Origin: Naegleria gruberi
Taxonomy: Eukaryota
Direction: 5' to 3' (one strand)
Assembly: GCA_000004985.1 (NCBI GenBank)
Contig: GG738894.1
DNA: 64,000 bases
This document shows positions 9,297 to 42,000 of the stretch, piece by piece. The notes beneath the pieces were generated by a model. The model made no database searches. It worked only from the letters and a program-made list of their open reading frames with translations, and had not been told where the DNA came from. The translations under genes and the position numbers were made by a program. Each line of letters opens with the position of its first letter. The stretch's first letter is position 1.

Positions 9297-10163
9297 ATGC
9301 CACAACTTGAAGTTCACGTAATTAAGGGCGTAAATTTACCCAAGATGGATGTTGGAATTGGCGCCAAAAGTGATCCCTACGTTGTGATGAAGATTGGCAA
9401 GTGCAAACATCAAACCACCATTAAGAAGAATACTTTAGATCCGATCTATAATGAAACCTTCCTCTTTACCTTTGAAAATAAGGGAGAGGCTACCACCTCC
9501 GCTACCAAATTAAAATTACAAATGTTTGATTATGATAAGTTAACAAAGGATGATAAGATGGGAAAGGCTAGTATTGTTCTGAGTGGATTAAAGAAGGGAG
9601 AAGTAACCAAGCATACTATCAAGATTGGTCCGAAGGGAAATTTACTTATTGAATTGAGAGCCTTAGATTTTGGTTTGAGTGCTGATGATGATGATATTGA
9701 ACAAGATATTAAGAAGGCTTGTTATTATTACTTTAAAACACCAGTTGATGAGCAGGGAAATAACAATGAAATGGAATCAGAGGCCATTCAAAGTGCAGCT
9801 TTTGATGAGAAATTAATTGCTAATTATTTAGAGTGGCAAATTCAAACGCCCGATGATGAAATCACAACCTTTGTCAGATCTTCATTGGTGAATGGTGGTT
9901 GGTTCAGAGTGATGAAAGGCCAAATAGATGACAATTACTACTATTACAAGTATGCTGGAATTAATGATGAAGGTTTTGAGGAGTATGATCAAGCCACTGA
10001 AGAGGAATTGACAGATTTGGATAATGATATGAAACAGTGGAAGTTAGAGATGGAATATCAAGTCGATGAAAGTGAAAGGAAACAATTGTATTTTGTGACT
10101 GAATATTTGGATAGTGCCACTGGAGAATATTATGCTGTCTATTCTGATAAGCAACATCTATAA
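9297..10163 (+). CDS. C2-domain protein
   Basis: N-terminal 120 aa form a typical C2 domain: LEVHVIKGVNLPKMDVGIGAKSDPYVVMKIG...KKNTLDPIYNETFLF...LKLQMFDYDKLTKDDKMGKASI. The tail is acidic. Confidence 0.8.
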   Translation: MPQLEVHVIKGVNLPKMDVGIGAKSDPYVVMKIGKCKHQTTIKKNTLDPIYNETFLFTFENKGEATTSATKLKLQMFDYDKLTKDDKMGKASIVLSGLKKGEVTKHTIKIGPKGNLLIELRALDFGLSADDDDIEQDIKKACYYYFKTPVDEQGNNNEMESEAIQSAAFDEKLIANYLEWQIQTPDDEITTFVRSSLVNGGWFRVMKGQIDDNYYYYKYAGINDEGFEEYDQATEEELTDLDNDMKQWKLEMEYQVDESERKQLYFVTEYLDSATGEYYAVYSDKQHL

Positions 10164-10963
10164 ATTGTTATCAAATTAAATTGTTGAAGTTGACTTTGTT
10201 GGTGTCACGTTAAGAACTTAAAAGTGACCAATCTACAGATAATAGCTTAATAGATGGGTATTATACAACAGCGAACTGTACAGTAATAGTTCAATGATTA
10301 GTTGTGAAAAGAATCACGGATAAAGATGATTCTCGACGAAAGCTTGCCATCTTTTTAACACAATGGCAAGTCAATCTACCAATTCCACACTGAAATATAA
10401 CATTGTTATCGGTTCGAATAGATTAGGAAGGTATATGTCAGATGCAAAAGTTACTTTCCAAATAAATAAGAAATGCAAGTTCTATAATGAGCTACTAGTT
10501 GACTTAGATGAATTCGAAATTAGCCACCCATTTGTTTTTGGACCCACAGTATTTGATGTTGGATCTTTCTTTCTCGAGCCTTTATTGTTCTCCTTCTCAA
10601 TTTTTACAGGTTTCTAATAAATATATCATCTCTTTCGAATAGGTTTTAGAGACATTTCTACCTCATCTCCATGAATGTATCTTTGAATAAAAGCCCATTT
10701 TTATGTTTCTCTGATTCAGGGTGATGTGTTTCTTGATTTTATTTTCATAAAGTTATGTCAGTTTGCAAACGCCAAATAAAATCACCTTGATCCTAATTTG
10801 GAATACTGACAAGTGACTGGGCATGAAAATGCATGACTTAGTTGGCTGACCAGCATCAAAAGCAATCACTTAGTTTCCTTTTGAAATGTTTTAAAGTCTC
10901 CAACAATACACAATACAAAAAAACAACATTACATTTATTCGAAACAATAGTTTATTAGAAAGT

Positions 10964-12508
10964 ATGCATCACAATAGATCAGAAAGTGAACCAACAAGAA
11001 TACAATCTATCCGATTGCCTACTCATGATCGAAGAGGTCAATCTATGGGAAATTCTCCACAATCACCTTTAAACATACTTTCGTCTAGTACTCCAAGATA
11101 TTCTAAACGAAAGGAAGAACGAACAGTCAATCTAGACCAATATTCCTTCAAAACACAAACTAATCCAACACTTTCCCAACTCTTACTCAAGCTTGGTCAT
11201 GAAATATTCGAAAATTGGGACGAATTCTGTGGAAACTTGGCACTTCAAGCCAGAACCTTCAAATCTTCATCAAAATCCGATCAGGAAACTAAACCATTCT
11301 CTTCCCAACCATGTACTCTACTCAATAGAATGTTCTCCTACGAGAATGTCTTTTCAAAACTAACCATAGAACAGCAAATCCATTTAATCACCAATTTCAT
11401 CACAAACTATTCCTGTTATGAGGTGAATGGTTCGATAAATATGAGAATTCCAACACATCTGTACAAGTATGTGTTAGATGAGGAGGAGCACATTACGAGA
11501 TCACGTTCTCCATCTTCACCTACTCATCATGTTTCCAATTTTTCACATCATTCGAATAATGATAGATTTTCCAATATTAAAGGAAGAGCTCCAATGAGCA
11601 GGAGAATAGTTCCACAACAGGTATCAGTCCTTTCAGAAATGTATTTCCAATACGATGAGGAGAATGACAGATGCGATTCAATGATGGTTTTGGCCTTTTT
11701 ATTGGATGTGGTTTTGAGAGGTTGTGTCCAGAAGGAGTTGACCACAACTTGCATGGACATGAGAAGTGTGGAAACAATTCTTTCTGAGAAATCTGAGCAT
11801 CATGGAGATGATTCACCTTGTTTAGGAAGGGATCAAGATGAGGAGGTCAATAGTTATCATTGGAGAGAGTATGTTTGTGATGTTTTGAGGCAATTGGTGG
11901 TTGGAAGAGAATCGAATAGAGATTCGTTTGATGAGACAGATCATGGAAATGATGTAGATATGGAAATGTCTGCATTTTCAAATGACATGTCAGTTTGGGA
12001 TGCTTTAATAATGAGAATTTTCAAGAATTTTCTTGATTTTAATCAAAATGACAAGCTGTCACGTGTTGAAACAGTTAAGGAACAATGTAAGCGATTGAAA
12101 AAACATTTCAAGAATAGTGCCAAGAATGTTTATCAAGTTCTGCAACACGACATGTGTCGTTTGGCATTCGTCTGTCAAAATGCCACACTATTCCAACCAA
12201 ATTTCAGAACTACTGCCGAAAAATATATCGACTCTCTCAGAAAGGAAGATAAAATGAAAGATCTTCCATTGAGTTTGGAAATGAGTGGCGAGCTACCTTT
12301 CATTACCATTTGTTATTGGCATACCTTGATGTGTAGAGGAGTACATGCTTATTTATCACCTCTGGAAAGAGTGAAAGCATTCCACAGAGTGGTGGAGAAG
12401 GCAATCTTTCCAATCAAACATATTTCACCAAAGAATCCAACAGAACCTTCTCATGTTTCATTAATCTTGTCAAAATCTGTACAATCATTCTTGGAATTAT
12501 TCAAATAA
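10964..12508 (+). CDS. Hypothetical protein (514 aa)
   Basis: Single long ORF; no recognisable domain. Confidence 0.4.
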   Translation: MHHNRSESEPTRIQSIRLPTHDRRGQSMGNSPQSPLNILSSSTPRYSKRKEERTVNLDQYSFKTQTNPTLSQLLLKLGHEIFENWDEFCGNLALQARTFKSSSKSDQETKPFSSQPCTLLNRMFSYENVFSKLTIEQQIHLITNFITNYSCYEVNGSINMRIPTHLYKYVLDEEEHITRSRSPSSPTHHVSNFSHHSNNDRFSNIKGRAPMSRRIVPQQVSVLSEMYFQYDEENDRCDSMMVLAFLLDVVLRGCVQKELTTTCMDMRSVETILSEKSEHHGDDSPCLGRDQDEEVNSYHWREYVCDVLRQLVVGRESNRDSFDETDHGNDVDMEMSAFSNDMSVWDALIMRIFKNFLDFNQNDKLSRVETVKEQCKRLKKHFKNSAKNVYQVLQHDMCRLAFVCQNATLFQPNFRTTAEKYIDSLRKEDKMKDLPLSLEMSGELPFITICYWHTLMCRGVHAYLSPLERVKAFHRVVEKAIFPIKHISPKNPTEPSHVSLILSKSVQSFLELFK

Positions 12509-25132: not shown

Positions 25133-27331
25133 TTAGTGAGTTTCAGTTGTTGTGGTGGTAGCTTCTGTTTGTTGAGATTGTTCGTTTGTTGTTTGATTAG
25201 TGGCAGCACCAATACGTTGTTGAATCATATTAACGACAAAGGCTGGATCAATAACGTGTTCGAAAATTAAACCAGATCTTTCCATACCCTTAGAATTGAC
25301 AGTCTTCAAGTAAATTCTATTGTCTTCAGCCCAAACACTCTTAATCTTTTCATAATTGACACTGACCAAGTTCATTCTCAAACGAAGTGGCAATTCAATA
25401 ACTCTAACAATACGTTCAGAGGTGATCAAATAGTGAACACTTCTTCTCTTGAAGAGAGCAAACCAAGTAATGAGGGCAATAACACCCAAAGTAAAGTACA
25501 AATGCAAGAATCCACTGAAAATCTTGAGTTTGAAAATAGAGATACCAGCATGGAGAGTACCATAGGCAATCAAACCAATAACGAATAAAATAAGGGCAAC
25601 CTTGGCAATGACACACAAGATACGTCCAAACTTTCTCTTACCATTACAAGCACCATGTTTCTTACCGTGACATGAAATATTCTTCTTGGCTGGCTTTTCA
25701 TACAATAAGAGAGTTTCAGTTGCCTTGGTAGCAGTTGATCTCATAAGTTTCCAGAACTTGGACAATCTCTTTTGCAATACTCTTTCTTGACGTGGAGTAT
25801 TTTCCATCTGTAAAGTGGAAGAAGAGAGAAGAGTTCTAGACTTTGGTTCTTTTGGATCTTGAATAATAACAGCTGAAGAGGAAACTTCATCGAGTTTGTA
25901 AACTTCTCCAGTACCTTCAAATGGATTGGCAAAGTATTGTCTAATGAATCTATCACAAGAACGTCTACTCTTACCATCCAAAACCTTAAAACCAATAATT
26001 ACAAAGATTACAGTAATAACTACTGAAAGAATCAAGAAACCTGGAATAGCACAACGAAGACTACGACGGAATCTACGAGCAACAGTTTCACGAGTGGCAA
26101 TAACATCTTCATGGTTCTCATCTCCACGACGATCCTTTTGTGGTTGTCTATTGTCAGCAGGAGCAATTGATGAGGATGGTTGTTGTCCTTGTTTACCAGA
26201 GTCAGGTTTAGCTTGATCGTTTGGTTGACCAGATTGTGGTGGTGCTTGCTGATTATCATTAGATGGTGGTGCTTGTGGCTTTGAGCTTTCTAGGATTCTC
26301 TTTTCACCACGACCAGATTGTGGTGGTTGATGTTTGGAGTATCCTCCATGACCCTTTCCTGGCTTTTCCATATCAAAGAACATGTCCATAACTTCCATCA
26401 TTCTCATTCTGTCTTCATCAATATAGCAAGAAATTTCACCAAGTTTAATAACACGATCTCTGCAATCTAAAGTTTGTTGTTGTAATGGATATGAACAAAC
26501 TCTTGACATGATGAAGGATTTCTTGGCAATCTTTGGTGGTTTAGTGTAAGAGTCTGGTCTTGATCTCATTACATGTCTAATTTCTCTAGTGTGTCTGGCA
26601 TGATTAGCAATTGAATGATGACCAGGATGGAATTCATCATGACCTGGACCACCAGGACCCAAGTTTCTGTGTGCAACTGAAACATTCAATTCGAGATAGT
26701 ACACTCCACGATCATAGTCAAAGTGTACAACAGAGTTATCTTGGTCAGTATTGACCTGGCAAACGCTCTTTCTATAATTTAAATGATTGTCAGCACTCTT
26801 ACCAATAGTTAAGAAGAATGCAATGGAGAGGAAAATAAATAAGAGTGAGAATACCCCAACAGCTCTTGGAATTCTTGTCCAAGTCTTACCCTTTAACGAT
26901 TTCAAAAATCTTTTTTGTTGGGCATGTTTACAATTTCTCCACTTCCAGAGCCATGATCTACGAGGAGCTTGTTCTCTTTGTGGCAATGGAATGGTAGTAT
27001 CTTGATTATTGGTAGTAGTAGTGGATGATGGAATTAAATTTTGGTTCATTGGAACTTCTTGTAATTCAACATCATTATGTACAATTGAAGATGGAATTGA
27101 TGATGAAGGAGGAACGTAATTGAATGGAATTGGATTCATACCACTCCATGGATACATGGTTGGGAGGTTATTTGTAGTAGTTTGATTAGCTGTTGATGGA
27201 GTTGTGGAATTTGGTTGTTGTTGATGAACCGTATAATAGGGAACATATTGAAGATCTTCGGAAGCCCCATTCAATGATGGATATTGGGAAGTTGGTTGTT
27301 GTTGTTGATTATTCATCTTCACTACTAACAA
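25133..27331 (-). CDS. Membrane protein with a C-terminal bPH_2 (DUF304/YdbT-like) PH domain
   Basis: 732-aa ORF: P/S-rich N-terminus, TM segments, a PQ-rich linker, then two adjacent TM helices followed by ITSERIVRVIELPLRLRMNLVSVNYEKIKSVWAEDNRIYLKTVNSKGMERSGLIFEHV, which fits the bacterial-type PH (bPH_2) pattern. Confidence 0.45.
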   Translation of the reverse strand: MLVVKMNNQQQQPTSQYPSLNGASEDLQYVPYYTVHQQQPNSTTPSTANQTTTNNLPTMYPWSGMNPIPFNYVPPSSSIPSSIVHNDVELQEVPMNQNLIPSSTTTTNNQDTTIPLPQREQAPRRSWLWKWRNCKHAQQKRFLKSLKGKTWTRIPRAVGVFSLLFIFLSIAFFLTIGKSADNHLNYRKSVCQVNTDQDNSVVHFDYDRGVYYLELNVSVAHRNLGPGGPGHDEFHPGHHSIANHARHTREIRHVMRSRPDSYTKPPKIAKKSFIMSRVCSYPLQQQTLDCRDRVIKLGEISCYIDEDRMRMMEVMDMFFDMEKPGKGHGGYSKHQPPQSGRGEKRILESSKPQAPPSNDNQQAPPQSGQPNDQAKPDSGKQGQQPSSSIAPADNRQPQKDRRGDENHEDVIATRETVARRFRRSLRCAIPGFLILSVVITVIFVIIGFKVLDGKSRRSCDRFIRQYFANPFEGTGEVYKLDEVSSSAVIIQDPKEPKSRTLLSSSTLQMENTPRQERVLQKRLSKFWKLMRSTATKATETLLLYEKPAKKNISCHGKKHGACNGKRKFGRILCVIAKVALILFVIGLIAYGTLHAGISIFKLKIFSGFLHLYFTLGVIALITWFALFKRRSVHYLITSERIVRVIELPLRLRMNLVSVNYEKIKSVWAEDNRIYLKTVNSKGMERSGLIFEHVIDPAFVVNMIQQRIGAATNQTTNEQSQQTEATTTTTETH

Positions 27332-27971: not shown

Positions 27972-30900
27972 TTAATGCTTGTCACTGGATTTTACCGAAA
28001 GTACAGAAGGACGGGTTGAAGATTTGACAGAGAGTGGAGAGTTTCTGGTATTATTTACATTGTTTGAACTGTTTGTGACTGAGAGCTGTTGTTGGGATTG
28101 TTTGATAGGAGTTGTGTTGACCTGTCTTCCAGTTGTTGTTGATGAGCTTGAACCAGTTGCTGTTGTATTGGATGTGCTTGGAGTACTGGAATACTTTTGA
28201 GAGGTAGTCACAACTTTTCCACTATTAACATTTGTATTGACCTTATTCGTTGCTGTTGGTTGATTAGCAGTTGTAGAACTTGTTGTTGTGGACGTAAGCT
28301 TTGGAACTGTATTGGTTGCAGTTGATTTGTTGGCAGTCTGAGTTGTTGGTTTGACTTCGACTGGTGTGGAGGTAAGTTTTGGAACTGTATTGGTTGCAGT
28401 TGGTTTGTTGGCAGTCTGAGTTGTTGGTTTTACCTCCACTGGTAGTGGTAAAATTTCATTATCTTTCAGAACTGTCTTGGCAGAGGTTGAGGTGAGAATT
28501 TGAGGTTCTTCTCTATTACCACACAATCTATTCTTTCTGCATTTTCCTTTGGCATTGGCACTGATTTCGATACCCCTCTTCTCACTGGTGAAAAGTTTGT
28601 TGAGCATGACGAGAGGGTCCGCATCCGATCCAATATATACATTCGATCCGCTATTGCTAAAAACCTTATTATTTACAATATTTCCGAGTCCTTCCTTTCC
28701 AATCTTGATACCTTCAGCCATGCTATTGTGAATTTGATTATTTTCAATTGTTGGATTTCCACCATCCTTTATAAAAATGTTTGCTTCCAAACTTCCAAAA
28801 ATGTCATTATCAGCAATAGTGCCATGAGCACCTGAATGTATTTGAATTCCAACATGAGGAGAGTCACGAATAGTATTACCAGTAATGGTTGGATCTGCCT
28901 TTTCACAAATTTCCAAAGAAACTCCCTTAAAGGTACACTTTTCGATGGATGCATCACATTTTGATCCCTTCAATTTAACAGTACAATGTGGGAGTTTTCC
29001 AGTTGTTTTGGTATTTGGTTTGTACTCTGAATTGTAAACTATCAAATTTCTAATTTTCGAATATCTGACATTGTCAAAGAGAATGACATCCTCAACATCT
29101 TTTGGTTTGTAAAGAATGGCATGTGATTTTCCTTCCGAAATTCCCTTCAAAAAGACACTTCTGTCAATGAGAATTTGTTCCTTATAAACTCCAGGTCGAA
29201 TATTAATAATTGGTGTTGTGAGTGGTCTGGTTGGTTTGATGATTTTTCTTCCGTCTGATGGCCTCACAATGAAAGGCAAGTTGAATTTTTGCATTAAAAG
29301 TCTCTGCTTATCAACAAGTGAAATGTCAAGATTGGAGAGTGGATTACTCTTGACTGGATTGTTTGTTCCCAACATGACTCCTCCACTCGATCCACAATCT
29401 TCATACTCTCCAATATCTCCCAAATTACCAGTTCTAAAACTACTGGCCTTCTTTAGCGAGCCCGAGTCTGAGAAGGCATTCTTCATGGAACTGGCTGAAA
29501 AGGTTTTTGTCAATGAATGAGATGGTAGTGGCCTCTTTGGTATAATTTTCGTAATATCCATTGGAAGAGCATTGATAGCTGTTTGAATGGATGTATAGTC
29601 TCCCTTTCCATTAATATCTACTGTATATTCGAGTGAGTTTTGGAGAGGAATACTTCTCAATTCGGTCAATATTTGAGAGAAGGTTGGACGTTCGTCTGGA
29701 TCCTGTAAACAACAAGTCGAAACCAATCTAACAAAGCAATCAATAATTGGTGATTCTTGTGCCAATTTTTCAGCATTTTCAATCTTTGGTCTTTGTCCCA
29801 TAATTACCTGTGAAGCTACAGTGAATGGATTTTGAACATCGTGAAATGGAATTAAGTGAGTAATCAACTCGTACATGACCATTCCGAAACTGTAAACGTC
29901 AGCTTTTTCTCCTGAAGATGCTGCAGAACTGAACATTTCCTGTTTTTCAAGTTTCGAATATAATAAGTAAAGTAGTAATATTTGATAATAATTTGTTGCA
30001 TAATTTGAATAATAAATTGATATTAAAAGTCAATGCAAAAATACTTACTGGAGCCATCCATCCAGATGTACCTTTCATACCAGATACTCCTGAATTTCTA
30101 TTTCTCACAGAAGACAATCCAAAATCTGAAATTTTCGAAATCAAATTCTTATCCAACAACACGTTATGACTCTTCAAATCTCTGTGAATGATTGGTTTTG
30201 GTCTCGAGTGCAAATGATGCATTCCTTCGGCAATATCAATGGCAATTTGTAATTTCATTTCATTGCTGAGAATTGGTTGTGATTGGAGGAATTTCTTGTA
30301 CTTGTCTGCTTGTTCATCCTCATCATCCATTGGAGATTCGACAATGGTGAGTCCAGTTCCGAGAAGTTTCTTTGTGGTTGGTGTGATCACTTGTCTATTG
30401 TTTTGTTGATTTGAAGGAGGTTTTAATTTGCCATTCTGTGATGATTCATTGGTTGGTGAGAGTTGAGAAGAGTTTTGTTTCTTGGATTTCATCAGAGGTT
30501 CATAGTCATACTCTGGAAAGGTTGTTTCTAATACTTTATGAAGAGAGAAGGGCAGAAATTCCTATTTTTCAATATTACATTATATATTAATTATATATTA
30601 GAATATTAATATGATGTTGTGTGTTGTTGTTATTAATATTATTCCGAATGATGTTTTCCAATTAATTAAATTAAACATTATAATAACAATTAAATTGTTG
30701 GAAGAAGTTAAACACAAATATAATGGAGAGAAGAGTCATAAGAAGAAGAAGAAATTACACTTAGAAAAGAGAGAAATAATTAAACAACTCACCATAACAA
30801 TATAAACACACTGACTATCATCGGACCAACCAAAAACATTCAAAATATTGGAATGTTGTACTCGTAACATGATGGCAATTTCATTCAAAGTCTCCTTCCA

Positions 30901-31466
30901 CAATTCATCATCATCACTATAGCTAGCAAGTCCAATCTTATTTCTTGGTGTTCGACAATTCTCGGGTATGAACAATTGTTTAATAGCACAAACTTCACCA
31001 TCATAGGTTCCCTTACTATTATCATCATCATCATTCGTTATTATTAATTGTTATTATTAATTCATATAATTCAAATATAATGGTTTAAATTCCAAATCAA
31101 AATATTACAGCAATATTTGGATAGATTACATTGTATATAATGGCAATCAGGATGATTTTAATTTTTCATAATTTGTAATTGTATCCGTTATGAAGATATG
31201 AAATTAATTGGCAAAGGAAAAGATTTGATAATTAAAAACATTAACAAAGGAAATGATAGAACGATCATTGAATCAACTACTGAACAGACAAATTAAACAA
31301 CAACATACTTTACAAAGCCTTTAAATAATATATATTAAAAAAACGAGGGAAAATATATTGAAAACATACCAAAACCTCCTTTACCAATCTTTTCTCCAAA
31401 TTCTAAATCCTCCTTATCAATTCGAAATTCTTTAATTTCGTCTTCCAAATCTCCGATATTATTCAT
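27972..31466 (-). CDS. Protein kinase (TKL-like) fused to a C-terminal right-handed parallel beta-helix (pectin-lyase-fold/PbH1) domain and an S/T-rich tandem-repeat tail; at least 4 exons
   Basis: Exon 1 (31466 to about 31368) gives MNNIGDLEDEIKEFRIDKEDLEFGEKIGKGGFG. Exon 2 (about 31011-30793) gives KGTYDGEVCAIKQL...LNEIAIMLRVQHSNILNVFGW...VYIVM. Exon 3 (30561-30049) gives EFLPFSLHKVL, an N/Q insert, then IIHRDLKSHNVLLDKNLISKISDFGLS...GTSGWMAP. Exon 4 (29939-27972) gives EMFS...ADVYSFGMVMYELIT, then YTVDINGKGDYTSIQTAINALP and repeated NxIxNN/GIxI beta-helix turns, then 2 x 78-nt repeats. The exon 1/2 junction phase could not be resolved. Confidence 0.8.
28291..28445 (-). repeat. Two tandem 77-78-nt coding repeats (VKPTTQTANK[P/S]TATNTVPKLTST) in the kinase C-terminal tail
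   Basis: Near-identical direct copies at 28291-28371 and 28372-28445. Confidence 0.8.
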
Positions 31467-36008: not shown

Positions 36009-39000
36009 TCAAATAATGGAGTTTATTTCTTCAGTCTTGACGATTGCTCCCACATGATACTTATTGTCCAATAAATAAGTCTGAAGAATTCCCTTTCCTT
36101 TTACTGCGATACTACGCTCCTCAAATGTGAATTCTAAATCAAAAACTCTTTCATATGTTTTTCTTGACAGTTGAATTCTTCCAGGTAAACTAGTGCTTTC
36201 CATCCTACTTGCTGTAGTTATGGAAAGAAAATAAGAAAATCATTAAATAATTATTACCACACTTCAAACTTACCTGTGTTGATATTGTCTCCCCAAAGAT
36301 CGTATGCAAACTTCTTCTTTCCAATCACTCCAGCTGTTACACTTCCTGTGTGTATACCTATTCTAATATTTATCTGTTTTTCAACAGGCTTTCTTGAAGT
36401 AATGTTGTAGTTACGAATAACATTGAAACAATCAATGGAAAATCTAAGAATTCTCTCTGGATGATTAATGTCAACATTGTTTAACCCTGCACAACAAAAG
36501 TAAGAATCACCAATGGTTTTGATTTTTTCCACATTATATTTGTCAGTCAAACCATCAAATCCATCAACCACACAATTCAGTAATTGCACTAACTCTGTAT
36601 GTGTTAATTGTGAGGTCAATGCAGTGAATTCAACCATATCACTAAAGAAACAGGTGACATCTGGGTGTTTCTCCGCAATAAGAGATGCTCCAGCCAAAAG
36701 TTGACGAGCTACAGAGCTAGGTAGAATATTAAGAAGCATATTTTCCGATTTCTTCTTTTCTTCGTTTAGTAATAAAATTGCCTTCTTCTCTAAGGTGGAT
36801 TCTTTGATGAAAAATAATGTAATGTGTTTGTTTTCAAAGAATGTTACATAGATATTGACTGTTGCAGGGAAAGTCTTTTGATTTTTTCTGACACACTCAA
36901 GTTCAAAAGTTTCTCCTTTAGGGCAGGTTTTTGTTACTTGTTTTTTGATGGATTCGACTTCGTTCTTAACCAAAGTTTGGTGTTCTCTTGTGAATATTTT
37001 AATAGGTTTACCAATAACATCTTCGAGTTGATAACCAAACATTCTTTGAGCTGAAGGATTGAAAATATCCACTAGCATTGTATCATTACATGTAATTACA
37101 CCATCAACAAATGTGTTAAGAATTGTCACTAGTTTTGCATCTCGCTCTGACGTGACACCATTGTTGGTAAATAATTTGGATGGGTTTTCATTAGGTAGTG
37201 TTTTAAATAATGCAAAGTTTTTAAGTTTCTCGTTGAACACCAAAGTATCTATCGATAGGTAATCGAACATGATTCTCATTTGTTGTTCTGCATTAGCATA
37301 TTCACGGAAAATGTAATACATCGAACAAATCGAGCAAGTGACAAGTACAAAGCCAATTACAAAACTCGCTATCACATAATTAATATTTGGTACAGAGGCA
37401 TCAACAGCGAAAATATTTGCAAAATCAATCAATTTCATCGATGACAAGTTAAAAAGAAATAAAATCTTAAGTAAGGAAGTAATATGTTCCTTGATAGTCA
37501 CTGGTTGAAATAAAATTGTCTGGGCCAATAAATTTTGTTTCAACAATATTTGTGTTGATAATAATATATGTGTTAGCATTGTATCTATTCCAATGCCACA
37601 AGTGCTGTTAAAATGAGTGTCAGTTTCTGGAATGGTACAATTTGGATCGCCCTTAATCAAGTGGTCTGTACCGGGAAACATGCCTGCAACTACTGATTCA
37701 AAGGGTTTTGTAGTTGATCCGAATAAACACCAATCCCAATTCCTTTGAAGATTTGCTGCCTCTTGATAATATTGAAGAGTCATATTTAAAGCTTCATCCT
37801 CTGTTATCAATGGTATATCGTCAACATTTCTATAATAAGCATATAGTTCAGTACTGTAAAATGCTACATTTTGCAGATGCTTGGTAGTTTCAAATACGTC
37901 TTGTACATTTACAAAGGATTCAACCGAATAATGGGTATTGTCAAACAAGCCACATACGAATACTGCCGTACACACTCCAACTGTTAAAAATATTACTATT
38001 ATCAAAATGGGGAAACATATCTTATGTTTGAGAGGATCTACTTTTCCTGCATGAGTAATCACTTCTTGTGGTTGTTGTTCGCATAATGTGTGGTATATTT
38101 CACCAACTTCTGGTTTAGAGACACACTCTTTCAGTAGCTTGACATGATTTTTCAATCTAGAGAAAGTGAATCTTGAATATATCAAATATAATACACACAC
38201 TATTAACAAGCAAGGTAACACGGCTGCTGTGTAAATGATTAAAACATTCCTCGAATTCAATGCCTCATCTATATGAACTTGTGTGTAAGAATGACAAAAT
38301 AAAGAATATGCCTGTGTAAGGGTATTTTGATTTCTATAAAGAAACATGAACATAAAGGATGTGTAGGTTTGTAGTAAAGCTTCACTTGTTTCTGACAAGA
38401 AGCGATTTGCCAATAGTTTTAAAATCTTATTGATTTGAGAGAGTGGGTACTTGTTTGACTCAGTCAGGTTATATAAACCTCCTCCTGGTATTACAGTTGG
38501 AATTACTAATGAATAGTGGAAATCAGTAAATTGAGAGTAGATTTGAGGTGAAAACTTTGAGGCAAAAGCAACGTTTTCTAAATTGACTATCGATTGTGTG
38601 AAATATTCGACATGCTGTTTGTATTTATCCATGTCAAAATAAATATCATTCGTCCAATTATGTTCGATGGTGATATTTGATTGCATCCAGTGGTCAATAA
38701 TCTGATACCCTCTTCCTGAAAGTAATAAGTTAGTGACACAGGGTATTGTGGCACATGCCTCCTTAGAATGTAGCAAATTGCTTGTTGCTTGATTGGAATA
38801 AATCAGTGACAGCAAGAATGGAGTGATGAGAGCAACCAAGAACAGTATGCAAAAGCCAACAAATAGTATGATAAAAACAGTTCGGCGTGTTGGAGTTGCA
38901 AGAGCATTGCTATAAATCATCTTTCTTGTTTGTGGATCCAGTGTTTCAAATTCTTCTAACGTTTGCTCCTCATTTTCTCTCCCATCAGTGGTAATTTCAG

Positions 39001-42000
39001 ACACAGAAGATTCACCTTCAGCTTTTTTAGTGGATCTGTTGCATTCATTTTCTTCGAGTAAGTTTGCTTTGTTAAAATTCTCATTTGATAATTCTGGATT
39101 TGCTTTAAATGATACCAAATATTGTGCATATATTCTTAGTGCTGTTTTGTCTTGACTATAAAAAGGAACAAGGTTGTTAAATATACAGTCACACTCGGCA
39201 ACTAGCTTGGAGCTTCTAAAAATGACTCTTTCAATTTTTTCCATAATAATACTTTCTTTCAGAAACTCTTTCCAAAAATCCTTATGAAGAGCATAAAGTT
39301 CTTCGGTTTTTCTCCGAATTTTAGACAGTATTAATACCAGTTCTGACTTGGAATCATCTTCACAAAGATACGCCTCAATTTCCTTCTTCTTTTGGCACAA
39401 TGAATACGAAGAAACAAAATTTGCATACTTTGGTGTCATATTTTTTGTTAAAATTGAAAAAGCCAATGTACGTTCACCCTTCGTTTGATATGCCATTATT
39501 GATGCTGATACTAAGGGCAACCTCATACTGCTGTTTAAATCTTGTAAGGTTGCCTTGATAAATGCTATTATCCCTGAATGATACTTGCTTCGTTTAGGTC
39601 CTTTCATCATTTCAAACTTTAAAAAAAGACCCAATAGGTAAACAATTCTATCATCTTGGAGATTTAAGTTTTTTGAGACTGTATATGTTCCAGTGTCTGG
39701 TTCTTCTTTAAAAAACTTGTTCTTAAATTTATACATATTGTATCTTGTATAACATTCCATTGTCACACATCCAATTAAAGCCATCAATAGCATCAACCCC
39801 AGAGTAGCTGAAAACAATATTATTCCAAGAGTGTTATCGTTGGTCACATTGACAAAATATGTCACAAGACCAGATACACTTGTGGCCAGTCTACAGAAAA
39901 TGATACCACTAATAACAGTATTTTCAAATCTTCTTAGCATTGGTATTGTTTGAAAAACAAGTATTATCAATAGTAGAGTCGAAATTATGTGTACAATAGA
40001 TCTTAAATATGCCGTGTACGGAGGAATTAGATGATGAATGACAATCCCAACAACATTGCACAACGGAATAGTGGCCTGAAAGATAATATTGTCATTTAGC
40101 ATTGGGGAGTTGCTTAATGGATGAGAATTTGGTAGAATCAATATTGATAGACCAAGTACAATTATAAAAACAACTATTGAAAGCAATGATAATATCATCA
40201 GAGGAATGTTGATAGAATCGAAACAAGGGGAACCTGGGAATCGATTCAACACCATTCCATTAGGTGCCCGACTAAATGGAATAACTACAGCAAGTGGTTC
40301 AGGTTGCGTCAAGCCATAACTGCAGTCTACAAAGGAAGTTAACACGTATGTGACAGGTGCCGAGATCAATAAACAAGTGTAACATAGAATATGTACCACT
40401 TTTTTCAGGAGCTTCCTCCTGCTACTTACTCTTTTCACAGCAGTATTAGCCAAAATAAAACAGCACACAATTGCCACAATAGTGATCATAAAAAATACAG
40501 CAAGACCAAGGTTAGCATAATATGGAAATGTCCATGATGCAAGAGTTATTGGAAAGTTCAAAACTTTGATGATCCAACTAGCCCATACTCCAAATCTGAA
40601 AGACACTGGATTTAGTAACGGTATCCATACAAAACACCAAAACAATACAAGCTGTACGATGAGTTGCTTAAGAAACTCAATGGTTCCTTTTCTAATTTTG
40701 TTTGCCTGCATTGCAAACAAGAAGATAAAAAACTCATTCGCTATGGCAGACCCAAACTCTGATGATAGAGTAGAGCTCTGGCAAGTAATAGATGTAGAAA
40801 ATCCGTTTTGTTTTTTTTCATCCTTGTTTGTGTCCTTAGTTTTGTTTGGTTTCTCAATACTGATGGCTCCATTATGCTGAAGTCTTATATAGCCTTGCAT
40901 TTCGATTTCAAACTTTGCATTGTCTAATTCAACTTCTTGTCTCAAATCATTTGGTATGAGATTATTATCCACATTGTTAATATTCAACTTTGGGTCTCTT
41001 CTGCTGTACATGAGCATGTAAGCATTTGTGGAATCGCCAATAATCTCATCATTTCCATACATGGATTCTATTTGAGATTTATCAATTTCATCAATATAAT
41101 TATCATTAAATTTAAACCATTTCCCTGAATGGAACGATCTTATTAACACAAAGTAATGCTTTAAAAAAGGTCACTAAAAAGCTAGCTATTTTACATACCC
41201 CTGTAAGTGCATCTCCAGAATGAATGATAACACTATAAAGATCAAATAAATGTTGCTGATCATCTACATATTTTGACATGTCCAACACAAAGGGAAAGGT
41301 AACTTTGTTTCCAAGCTAATACTACAATTACATTAATATGAACAAGTTCATACTTACCTTGACAGGAGTATTTGTTTGATAATCAACCCTCTTGAGTTGA
41401 AGTGTTAAAATGTAGGGAAGATGAGCCAATTTTAAATTCTTGACCGCATCTATTTTCTTATTTCCAAGCTCCTCACAACACCATTGATTATCTCCCTTCA
41501 TTTCCTCAGATTTTAAAAAACTTTCAATGGCCTCCTCGACACTGGACACATCCCGAATAGCCAATTGCAAATCCATAAAACTGTCCACTTTGGTGGTTTG
41601 ATATACTTCACCACTTTGTTTCTTCTCATCCACAGACTCGATATGATCTATTACAGTGCCACAAAACAGGTCGCTGAAGGATACATTGCTATCGTTATTG
41701 TAATTTTTTTGTGGTGGTGATGAATCAGTTTCTTTAGAATGGGATCCGTCAGTCAGCACGTCGAACAAGATCCTAAACACTTCATGAATATCGTGTTGAA
41801 CTTTTAAATCTGATGCTTGCCAGCCTAAGCATAGAAAAATTTTCGCACACGAATCAATCATATTATGTGTTGATAATGAAATCTAAGGACAATCGAAAAC
41901 TTACCAAATGAATTTGTTAACTGTGTGGTGTCCACTGAGTTTCTCTTTGATAAAGTCAAATAGGCAAACAAGCGTTGCAATTGATAAGGGACGCAATGGT

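What the first reader, a model, noticed from the sequence alone, without database searches (positions are those of the whole stretch)
27972..31466. Protein kinase fused to a right-handed beta-helix (pectin-lyase-fold) domain
After a complete kinase catalytic domain (GKGGFG, CAIK, HRDLKSHNVLL, DFGLS, GTSGWMAPE, DVYSFGMVMYE...RP) the same exon continues into YTVDINGKGDYTSIQTAINALP. That is the hallmark start of pectinesterase and parallel beta-helix proteins. About 8 PbH1-like turns follow (NTIRDSPHVGIQIHSGAHGTIADNDIF / NIFIKDGGNPTIENNQIHNSMAEGIKIG / NIVNNKVFSNSGSNVYIG), then a Thr/Ser-rich tandem-repeat tail. There is no signal peptide or TM segment, so the beta-helix would be intracellular and act as a binding or scaffold module rather than a secreted carbohydrate enzyme. 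This is an unusual kinase accessory domain.
Basis: partly seen in the sequence, partly recalled or inferred. Interest (0 to 1): 0.6.

Follow-up and report, generated by a model that had tools for sequence, protein, structure and literature searches.

The report
Naegleria kinase fused to beta-helix domain
This is a real gene from a Naegleria-type amoeba that encodes one cytosolic protein joining a Raf-like protein kinase to an FBXO11-like beta-helix; the helix most likely serves as a binding or sensor module, and the combination is conserved in related amoebae but unstudied.

The parts
31370..31466 (-). Exon 1 (97 nt). It runs from the ATG to the first G of the last Gly codon of the loop, MNNIGDLEDEIKEFRIDKEDLEFGEKIGKGGF(G). 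Donor GTATGT.
   Evidence: the N-terminus aligns with N. lovaniensis and Willaertia orthologues
31309..31318 (-). 10-nt micro-exon GCTTTGTAAA (acceptor AAAG, donor GTATGT). It supplies G-F-V-N and restores the Gly-rich loop GKGGFGFVNKG.
   Evidence: N. lovaniensis has the same micro-exon, GCTTTGTCAG, flanked by ag/gt. The resulting model is in frame with all GT-AG introns. Willaertia reads GFGFVC through without the upstream intron.
30793..31015 (-). Exon 3 (223 nt): kinase N-lobe, containing VAIK-type Lys47 (CAIK) and the alphaC Glu (LNEIAIM).
30049..30561 (-). Exon 4 (513 nt): a low-complexity kinase insert of about 80 aa, then the catalytic loop HRDLKSHN, DFG and the activation loop up to GWMAP.
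   Evidence: (Pkinase matched in two stretches)
29655..29939 (-). First part of exon 5: kinase C-lobe (E of APE, DVYSFG, DERP) to about residue 376.
   Evidence: best solved relatives are CTR1, B-Raf and Roco4
29547..29630 (-). N-terminal cap of the beta-helix (residues 385-412, EYTVDINGKGDYTSIQTAINALP...). It starts about 9 residues after the end of the kinase domain.
   Evidence: AlphaFold pLDDT 85-92, one strand plus one helix; I16 and A19 of the fragment are invariant in the family alignment
29274..29546 (-). Ser-rich insert predicted to be disordered (residues about 413-503). It ends in a conserved helix and motif, KQRLLMQKFNLPF..SDGRKIIKPTRPLTTP.
   Evidence: pLDDT below 50 for fragment residues 33-118; the insert varies in length and is nearly absent in P0007
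28443..29273 (-). Right-handed parallel beta-helix body (residues about 504-780, about 11 coils), with PGVYKE at its start and 23-residue PbH1-type turns.
27975..28442 (-). Thr/Ser/Asn-rich low-complexity tail (residues 781-936), including a 26-aa unit repeated 2.1 times (28287-28448).
27972..27974 (-). Stop codon TAA

Best explanation
The locus is a five-exon gene of a Naegleria-like heterolobosean amoeba. It encodes a soluble, cytosolic, probably active TKL-group Ser/Thr kinase. The kinase C-lobe leads, through a linker of about 9 residues, directly into a single FBXO11/CASH-type right-handed beta-helix. A low-complexity Ser/Thr tail follows. The most likely mechanism is that the helix is a non-catalytic recognition module. 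It would bind a protein partner, or possibly a polymeric ligand, and so recruit substrates or localise or gate the adjacent kinase, as the CASH helices of FBXO11 present substrates to the SCF ligase. The Ser-rich disordered loop between the cap and the helix body, and the tail, are plausible regulatory or autophosphorylation regions. What is shown: the gene structure, the domain identities and fold, the intact kinase motifs, the absence of membrane segments, the conservation of the fusion, and the identity of the nearest helix relatives. What is inferred: kinase activity, the non-enzymatic binding role of the helix, and any role of the disordered regions.
Against: There is no direct evidence of what the helix binds, and no expression or phosphorylation data. 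The best solved structural and sequence matches are enzymes (alginate C5-epimerases, lyases, tailspike depolymerases). The His of the epimerase motif is kept in the Naegleria and Willaertia sequences. Catalysis with a different residue set cannot be excluded from sequence alone. I could not inspect model coordinates to look for a conserved groove.
Confidence: 0.6

Rival explanations
1. Bifunctional enzyme. Under this reading the beta-helix is an active carbohydrate-modifying domain (epimerase, lyase or hydrolase) acting on an intracellular or cyst-wall-precursor polysaccharide, and it is coupled to a regulatory kinase.
Against: Both Asp residues of DPHD are replaced (QIHS), and the His is lost in P0007 (HVLQ). 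Family-invariant residues are structural. There is no Pectinesterase, glycosyl-hydrolase or lyase Pfam hit at E<=1. There is no secretion signal. The closest sequence relatives are FBXO11-type proteins and signalling or effector fusions rather than CAZymes.
Confidence: 0.1
2. The helix acts mainly as an intramolecular regulator or oligomerisation scaffold (autoinhibition, dimerisation, filament or condensate formation with the S/T tail) rather than as a substrate or ligand receptor.
For: The helix cap begins only about 9 residues after the kinase domain, so the two domains must sit close together. A conserved helix and motif precede the helix body. Raf-type TKL kinases, the nearest solved relatives, are regulated by dimerisation; that last point is established knowledge and was not tested here.
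Against: Nothing here separates this reading from partner binding. The same helix type is attached to many unrelated effector domains, which fits a portable recognition module better than a kinase-specific regulator.
Confidence: 0.2
3. Gene-prediction artefact: two adjacent genes (kinase and beta-helix protein) wrongly read as one.
For: A prokaryotic gene caller split the identical metagenomic contig into two ORFs. N. lovaniensis has an annotated 'beta-helix only' protein (P0006).
Against: The kinase C-lobe (APE to DERP) and the helix lie in one ORF with no stop and no intron. The metagenome split falls at the intron inside the kinase domain, not between the domains. P0006 comes from a redundant contig end that is 98.9% identical to the main locus and has 41 gap openings, so its model is frameshifted. 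P0007 is a single 841-codon ORF.
Confidence: 0.02
4. Receptor-type kinase with an extracellular beta-helix, as in some bacterial kinase-helix proteins.
For: 6 of the 26 non-heterolobosean kinase-helix proteins listed have a hydrophobic segment (5 of them between kinase and helix), which suggests an extracytoplasmic helix.
Against: The Naegleria protein and all its orthologues have no segment with a Kyte-Doolittle mean of 1.8 or more. The maximum here is 1.05, and it lies within the kinase core. The kinase starts at residue about 20, with no signal peptide.
Confidence: 0.02

Closest known systems
FBXO11 / FBXO10 (F-box proteins with CASH beta-helix domains and a UBR zinc finger)
   Same: Both carry an intracellular PF13229-type right-handed beta-helix with the same PGxYxE cap and 23-residue PbH1 turns. 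Identity to an FBXO11-architecture protein is 24-30% over up to 262 residues. In FBXO11 the helix is described as the substrate-recognition part (PMC8825234).
   Different: There is no F-box and no zf-UBR here. The window protein has one helix domain of about 11 coils rather than three CASH domains, and the partner enzyme is a kinase in cis rather than an SCF ligase in trans.
Cyanobacterial Hanks-type Ser/Thr kinases with PbH1 repeats (e.g. Alr2502/Pkn22 of Nostoc PCC 7120) and similar prokaryotic kinase-helix proteins
   Same: The order of parts is the same, with an N-terminal kinase and a C-terminal PF13229/PbH1 helix. Most lack membrane segments (PMC2176072). Pkn22 is a working kinase that phosphorylates HetR (PMC6985446 title and abstract).
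   Different: Their kinase domains are only remotely related to this one: 14-49 bits, against 99-261 bits for eukaryotic TKL kinases. They carry several tandem helix domains (3-7 matched stretches). The fusion therefore arose independently. The role of the helix in Pkn22 is not discussed in the paper I checked.
TKL-group kinases (CTR1, Raf, Roco4/LRRK-like)
   Same: The catalytic domain is most similar to these among solved structures. It has the HRDLKxxN catalytic loop, and all catalytic residues are present.
   Different: It has an 80-residue low-complexity insert in the kinase domain and a beta-helix as accessory domain. It has none of the Ras-binding, ROC-COR, LRR or ankyrin modules of those families.
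Mannuronan C5-epimerases AlgG / AlgE4 and polysaccharide lyases and tailspikes of the pectin-lyase fold
   Different: Those proteins are secreted or periplasmic enzymes. Their catalytic DPHD motif is QIHS here and is not conserved in the family. This protein has no signal peptide.
Prokaryotic TIR-, caspase-, CHAT-, SIR2- and HSP70-beta-helix proteins
   Same: They carry the same helix subtype as a C-terminal module on a cytoplasmic effector or signalling domain. 116 of the 148 closest relatives lack a strongly hydrophobic segment.
   Different: They have different N-terminal domains and several tandem helix domains, and their functions are untested. The resemblance to conflict-system architectures comes from my own knowledge, not from a test here.

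Membership tests
Eukaryotic protein kinase superfamily (Pfam PF00069 / PF07714) | HMM score above the curated cut-off | tested here: met
   Pkinase 147.7 bits (cut-off 31.7); PK_Tyr_Ser-Thr 137.1 bits (cut-off 23.1)
Eukaryotic protein kinase superfamily (active members) | Catalytic residues present: GxGxxGxV loop, VAIK Lys, alphaC Glu, HRD Asp, catalytic-loop Asn, DFG Asp, APE, subdomain XI Arg | tested here: met
   GKGGFGFV 28-35 (requires the micro-exon), CAIK 45-48, LNEIAIM 79-85, HRDLKSHN 236-243, DFG 256-258, APE 280-282, DERP 363-366. Enzymatic activity itself cannot be tested here.
TKL group of kinases | Catalytic domain closest to TKL members rather than to other groups | tested here: inconclusive
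   The best solved matches are CTR1, B-Raf, RAF1 and Roco4, and the best database matches are TKL-like kinases of protists and plants. No kinome-wide phylogeny or group-specific HMM was run.
Pfam Beta_helix (PF13229) / pectin-lyase-fold right-handed beta-helix | HMM score above the cut-off and a three-stranded right-handed coil fold | tested here: met
NosD (PF05048) | HMM above the cut-off; periplasmic copper-enzyme maturation context | tested here: inconclusive
   34.5 bits (cut-off 23.6), but the match overlaps the stronger Beta_helix hit and covers only profile positions 56-167 of 212. The protein is eukaryotic and cytosolic, so I do not file it as NosD.
Pectinesterase (PF01095) | HMM match | tested here: not met
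   No Pectinesterase hit at E<=1. Only the generic cap (GDYTSIQ.AI..A, PGVYKE) resembles it. The family's signature catalytic motifs were not individually searched.
Mannuronan C5-epimerase (AlgG/AlgE) | Catalytic DPHD motif; secretion | tested here: not met
   DPHD aligns to QIHS. Orthologues have HIHS, YIHS, HVLQ and YIHN. There is no signal peptide.
FBXO11 / FBXO10 | F-box, three CASH helices and a C-terminal zf-UBR | tested here: not met
   No F-box or zf-UBR hit. True FBXO11-architecture proteins (P0134, P0145, P0149) have them. Only the helix type is shared.
Receptor / transmembrane kinases | Signal peptide and/or a TM segment between ectodomain and kinase | tested here: not met
   The maximum Kyte-Doolittle 19-residue mean is 1.05. 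No segment reaches 1.8 in any heterolobosean orthologue. This is a crude hydropathy test; no dedicated predictor was available.

The most novel reading that the evidence does not exclude
The FBXO11-type helix could be a cytosolic sensor for a non-self or damage-related ligand, for example a microbial or viral protein or polymer met by a bacterivorous amoeba, with ligand binding switching on the attached TKL kinase. That would make this family a eukaryotic counterpart of the prokaryotic TIR/caspase/CHAT/SIR2-beta-helix proteins, in which the same helix subtype is joined to immune-type effector domains.
Probability: 0.1. Interest if true: 0.6.

Novelty: new member of a known kind. Interest (0 to 1): 0.3.

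Why it matters
If the reading is right, heteroloboseans independently attached the FBXO11-type recognition helix to a Raf-like kinase. This would be another case of a fold best known from secreted carbohydrate enzymes being reused inside the cell as a recognition module. It would also give a defined, conserved and probably druggable kinase in the genus that includes the pathogen N. fowleri; I did not confirm that N. fowleri carries it. Practically, the locus shows how a 10-nt micro-exon inside the Gly-rich loop can be missed, and how a redundant low-quality contig created a spurious 'helix-only' protein in a public annotation. No long-standing question depends on this gene, and its orthologues are already in public databases with the same Pfam domains assigned automatically.

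Tried and rejected
1. My first gene model used the only in-frame GT-AG junction between exon 1 and the next large exon (31366|31015). It gave GKGGFG-I-KGTY, two residues short and lacking the loop Val. I replaced it with the micro-exon model after reading the N. lovaniensis locus.
2. The search for homologous proteins with the helix alone returned only 4 hits and missed the known orthologues. With a six-sequence helix alignment it returned nothing. Both look like limits of the word index and say nothing about distribution. As a result I could not list further eukaryotic kinase-helix fusions with names.
3. The afdb50 fold library was unavailable, so there was no comparison with predicted structures of annotated eukaryotic proteins.
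4. The pectinesterase reading of the N-terminal motif is rejected because there is no HMM hit.
5. An HGT origin of the whole fusion from bacteria is rejected, because the kinase domain is eukaryotic TKL-like and scores only 14-49 bits against the kinases of the other helix fusions.
6. The 'separate beta-helix gene' in N. lovaniensis is rejected as an assembly or annotation artefact.
7. A search of the 64-kb window for a second kinase or helix found none.
8. Literature searches for kinase plus PF13229, PbH1 or CASH in Naegleria or other eukaryotes found no description of this family.

Full report
What is there. The region lies in AT-rich DNA (about 31-38% G+C in the 2-kb windows) with short introns. 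On the minus strand an ATG at 31466 opens a gene that ends at a TAA at 27974-27972. The last exon (29939-27972, 1968 nt) is a single ORF. It starts inside the kinase domain at the E of APE, runs through DVYSFG and DERP (kinase subdomains IX-XI), and continues without interruption into YTVDINGKGDYTSIQTAINALP, the repeat region and the Thr/Ser tail. The central claim, that kinase and beta-helix are on one polypeptide, therefore does not rest on any predicted splice.

Gene model. With canonical GT-AG sites, the only in-frame join of exon 1 to the next large exon gave GKGGFG-I-KGTY. That is two residues shorter than the orthologues (GKGGFGFVSKGTY) and lacks the conserved Val of the Gly-rich loop. 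The N. lovaniensis locus has a 10-nt micro-exon (GCTTTGTCAG) between two introns at this point. The window has the same element, GCTTTGTAAA at 31318-31309, with an AAAG acceptor and a GTATGT donor. Including it gives a five-exon, 936-aa protein with the loop GKGGFGFVNKG and all introns GT-AG. Willaertia lacks the upstream intron but keeps the downstream one in the same phase.

Domains. Pfam gives Pkinase at E 5.6e-43, PK_Tyr_Ser-Thr at 8.5e-40, Beta_helix (PF13229) at 7.5e-29 and NosD at 1.9e-8. There is no Pectinesterase hit at E<=1. All catalytic kinase residues are present. An insert of about 80 low-complexity residues splits the Pkinase match in two. The nearest solved kinases are CTR1, B-Raf, RAF1 and Roco4. 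The nearest database kinases outside the family are TKL-like kinases of protists, oomycetes and plants.

Location. No 19-residue window exceeds a Kyte-Doolittle mean of 1.05, and the kinase domain begins about 20 residues from the N-terminus. The whole protein, helix included, should therefore be cytosolic. This is a crude hydropathy test, but the margin is large.

Conservation and origin. Full-length orthologues exist in Naegleria lovaniensis (69% identity over 99% of the query) and Willaertia magna (59%). Two environmental Naegleria-like sequences are 66-67% identical. Two more distant kinase-helix proteins (P0007, P0008) are about 35% identical. The N. lovaniensis locus is collinear with the window, including the downstream gene. 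P0007 is one uninterrupted 841-codon ORF. P0008 lies beside a eukaryotic RME-8 gene. A 100% identical 3.1-kb metagenomic contig exists. A prokaryotic gene caller split it at the intron inside the kinase, not between the domains. The N. lovaniensis 'beta-helix only' protein comes from a contig end that is 98.9% identical to the main locus but has 41 gap openings, so its model is frameshifted. I conclude that the window comes from a Naegleria species and that the fusion is an established heterolobosean gene family.

Relatives of the helix. An exhaustive HMMER search of 1.84 billion representatives with the helix region found 2677 proteins at E<=1e-3. Outside the family, the top hits are multi-domain proteins with several tandem PF13229 domains. 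A Pfam census of 65 of them gave TIR in 15, Pkinase in 6, caspase in 5, F-box plus zf-UBR in 4, CHAT in 2, and single cases of SIR2, HSP70, PNP_UDP and trypsin. P0134, P0145 and P0149 were confirmed to have the FBXO11 architecture. The window helix aligns to P0134 at 24-30% identity from the PGVYKE cap onward. By a crude measure, 116 of the 148 closest relatives lack a strongly hydrophobic segment.

Other kinase-helix proteins. Twenty-four of the top 148 non-heterolobosean relatives were initially found to carry a kinase; two more weak kinase matches (P0238, P0253) appear in the scored list. Their kinase domains score only 14-49 bits against the window kinase, whereas eukaryotic TKL kinases score 99-261 bits. 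Six of the kinase-helix proteins listed have a hydrophobic segment, in five cases lying between kinase and helix. They resemble bacterial Hanks-type kinases. Cyanobacterial kinases with PbH1 repeats, including Alr2502/Pkn22, were catalogued in 2007 (PMC2176072). The heterolobosean fusion is therefore an independent joining of a eukaryotic TKL kinase to this helix type.

Function. The AlgG catalytic DPHD motif aligns to QIHS in the window, and to HIHS, YIHS, HVLQ and YIHN in relatives. Residues invariant across the family are almost all Gly, Asn, Pro, Ile or Val. Four observations fit together: the cytosolic location, the helix type being the one that FBXO11 uses for substrate recognition (PMC8825234), its repeated pairing with signalling or effector domains in prokaryotes, and the weak conservation of the epimerase motif. 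On that basis the best-supported reading is a non-catalytic recognition module that brings partners to, or controls, the adjacent kinase. This step is inference. A catalytic role with other residues, or a purely regulatory or oligomerisation role, cannot be excluded with the tools I had.

Comparison and novelty. The protein is a member of the protein kinase superfamily, probably of the TKL group, and of Pfam Beta_helix. It is not a pectinesterase, an alginate epimerase, an FBXO11 orthologue or a receptor kinase, because a defining feature of each failed when tested. The combination of kinase and PbH1 helix is already known in bacteria, and intracellular CASH helices are known in animals. The orthologues of this gene sit in public databases as hypothetical proteins with the same Pfam domains. 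I found no paper describing the eukaryotic family. I rate it a new member of a known kind, of modest interest (0.3).

Limits. Two of the three indexed protein searches were uninformative. The AlphaFold-database fold library was unavailable. Model coordinates could not be inspected. The distribution of this architecture across eukaryotes and the nature of the helix surface therefore remain open.

Noticed in passing
window 31309-31318 (-); L002 6181-6190: A 10-nt micro-exon inside the kinase Gly-rich loop is shared by the window species and N. lovaniensis. Willaertia magna (L006) lacks the upstream intron but keeps the downstream one in the same phase. Ab initio gene finders are likely to miss it.
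   Followed up: yes
L005 (N. lovaniensis PYSW02000034.1, contig end) versus L002: The N. lovaniensis assembly holds a redundant copy of this locus that is 98.9% identical with 41 gap openings. It yields a split annotation: a 168-aa kinase fragment plus a 535-aa 'Right handed beta helix domain-containing protein' (C9374_008558). This looks like a haplotig or unpolished contig end, not a paralogue.
   Followed up: yes
window 36254-41149 (-): A 1631-aa ORF carries TPR (TmcB-type), PAS and an adenylate/guanylate cyclase catalytic domain (Guanylate_cyc E 3e-36). It is a large sensor cyclase gene about 5 kb upstream of the kinase gene.
   Followed up: partly
window 25133-27331 (-): The downstream neighbour is a 732-aa Gln/Asn/Thr-rich ORF with visibly hydrophobic stretches and no Pfam match. 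It is conserved and collinear in N. lovaniensis (L002 about 9839-11824).
   Followed up: partly
window 28287-28448 (-): A 78-nt tandem repeat (2.1 copies, 91% matches) encodes PVEVKPTTQTANK(P/S)TATNTVPKLTST within the low-complexity tail. The tail is not alignable between species.
   Followed up: partly
proteins P0124, P0127, P0128, P0123 and alignment A3 (not in the window): The same FBXO11-like helix subtype is repeatedly fused in environmental, mostly prokaryote-looking proteins to TIR, caspase, CHAT, SIR2, HSP70-like and TPR domains. This set of architectures resembles conflict or defence systems, and the role of the helix there appears undescribed.
   Followed up: partly
L001 (ENA ERZ929261, run ERR1078381, project PRJEB11402): A 3146-bp metagenomic contig encodes a protein (P0002) 100% identical to the product of the last exon of the window gene, so this Naegleria species or strain was present in that environmental sample. 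No annotated protein from an NCBI genome matched at 100%, so the source genome of the window may lack this gene model.
   Followed up: no
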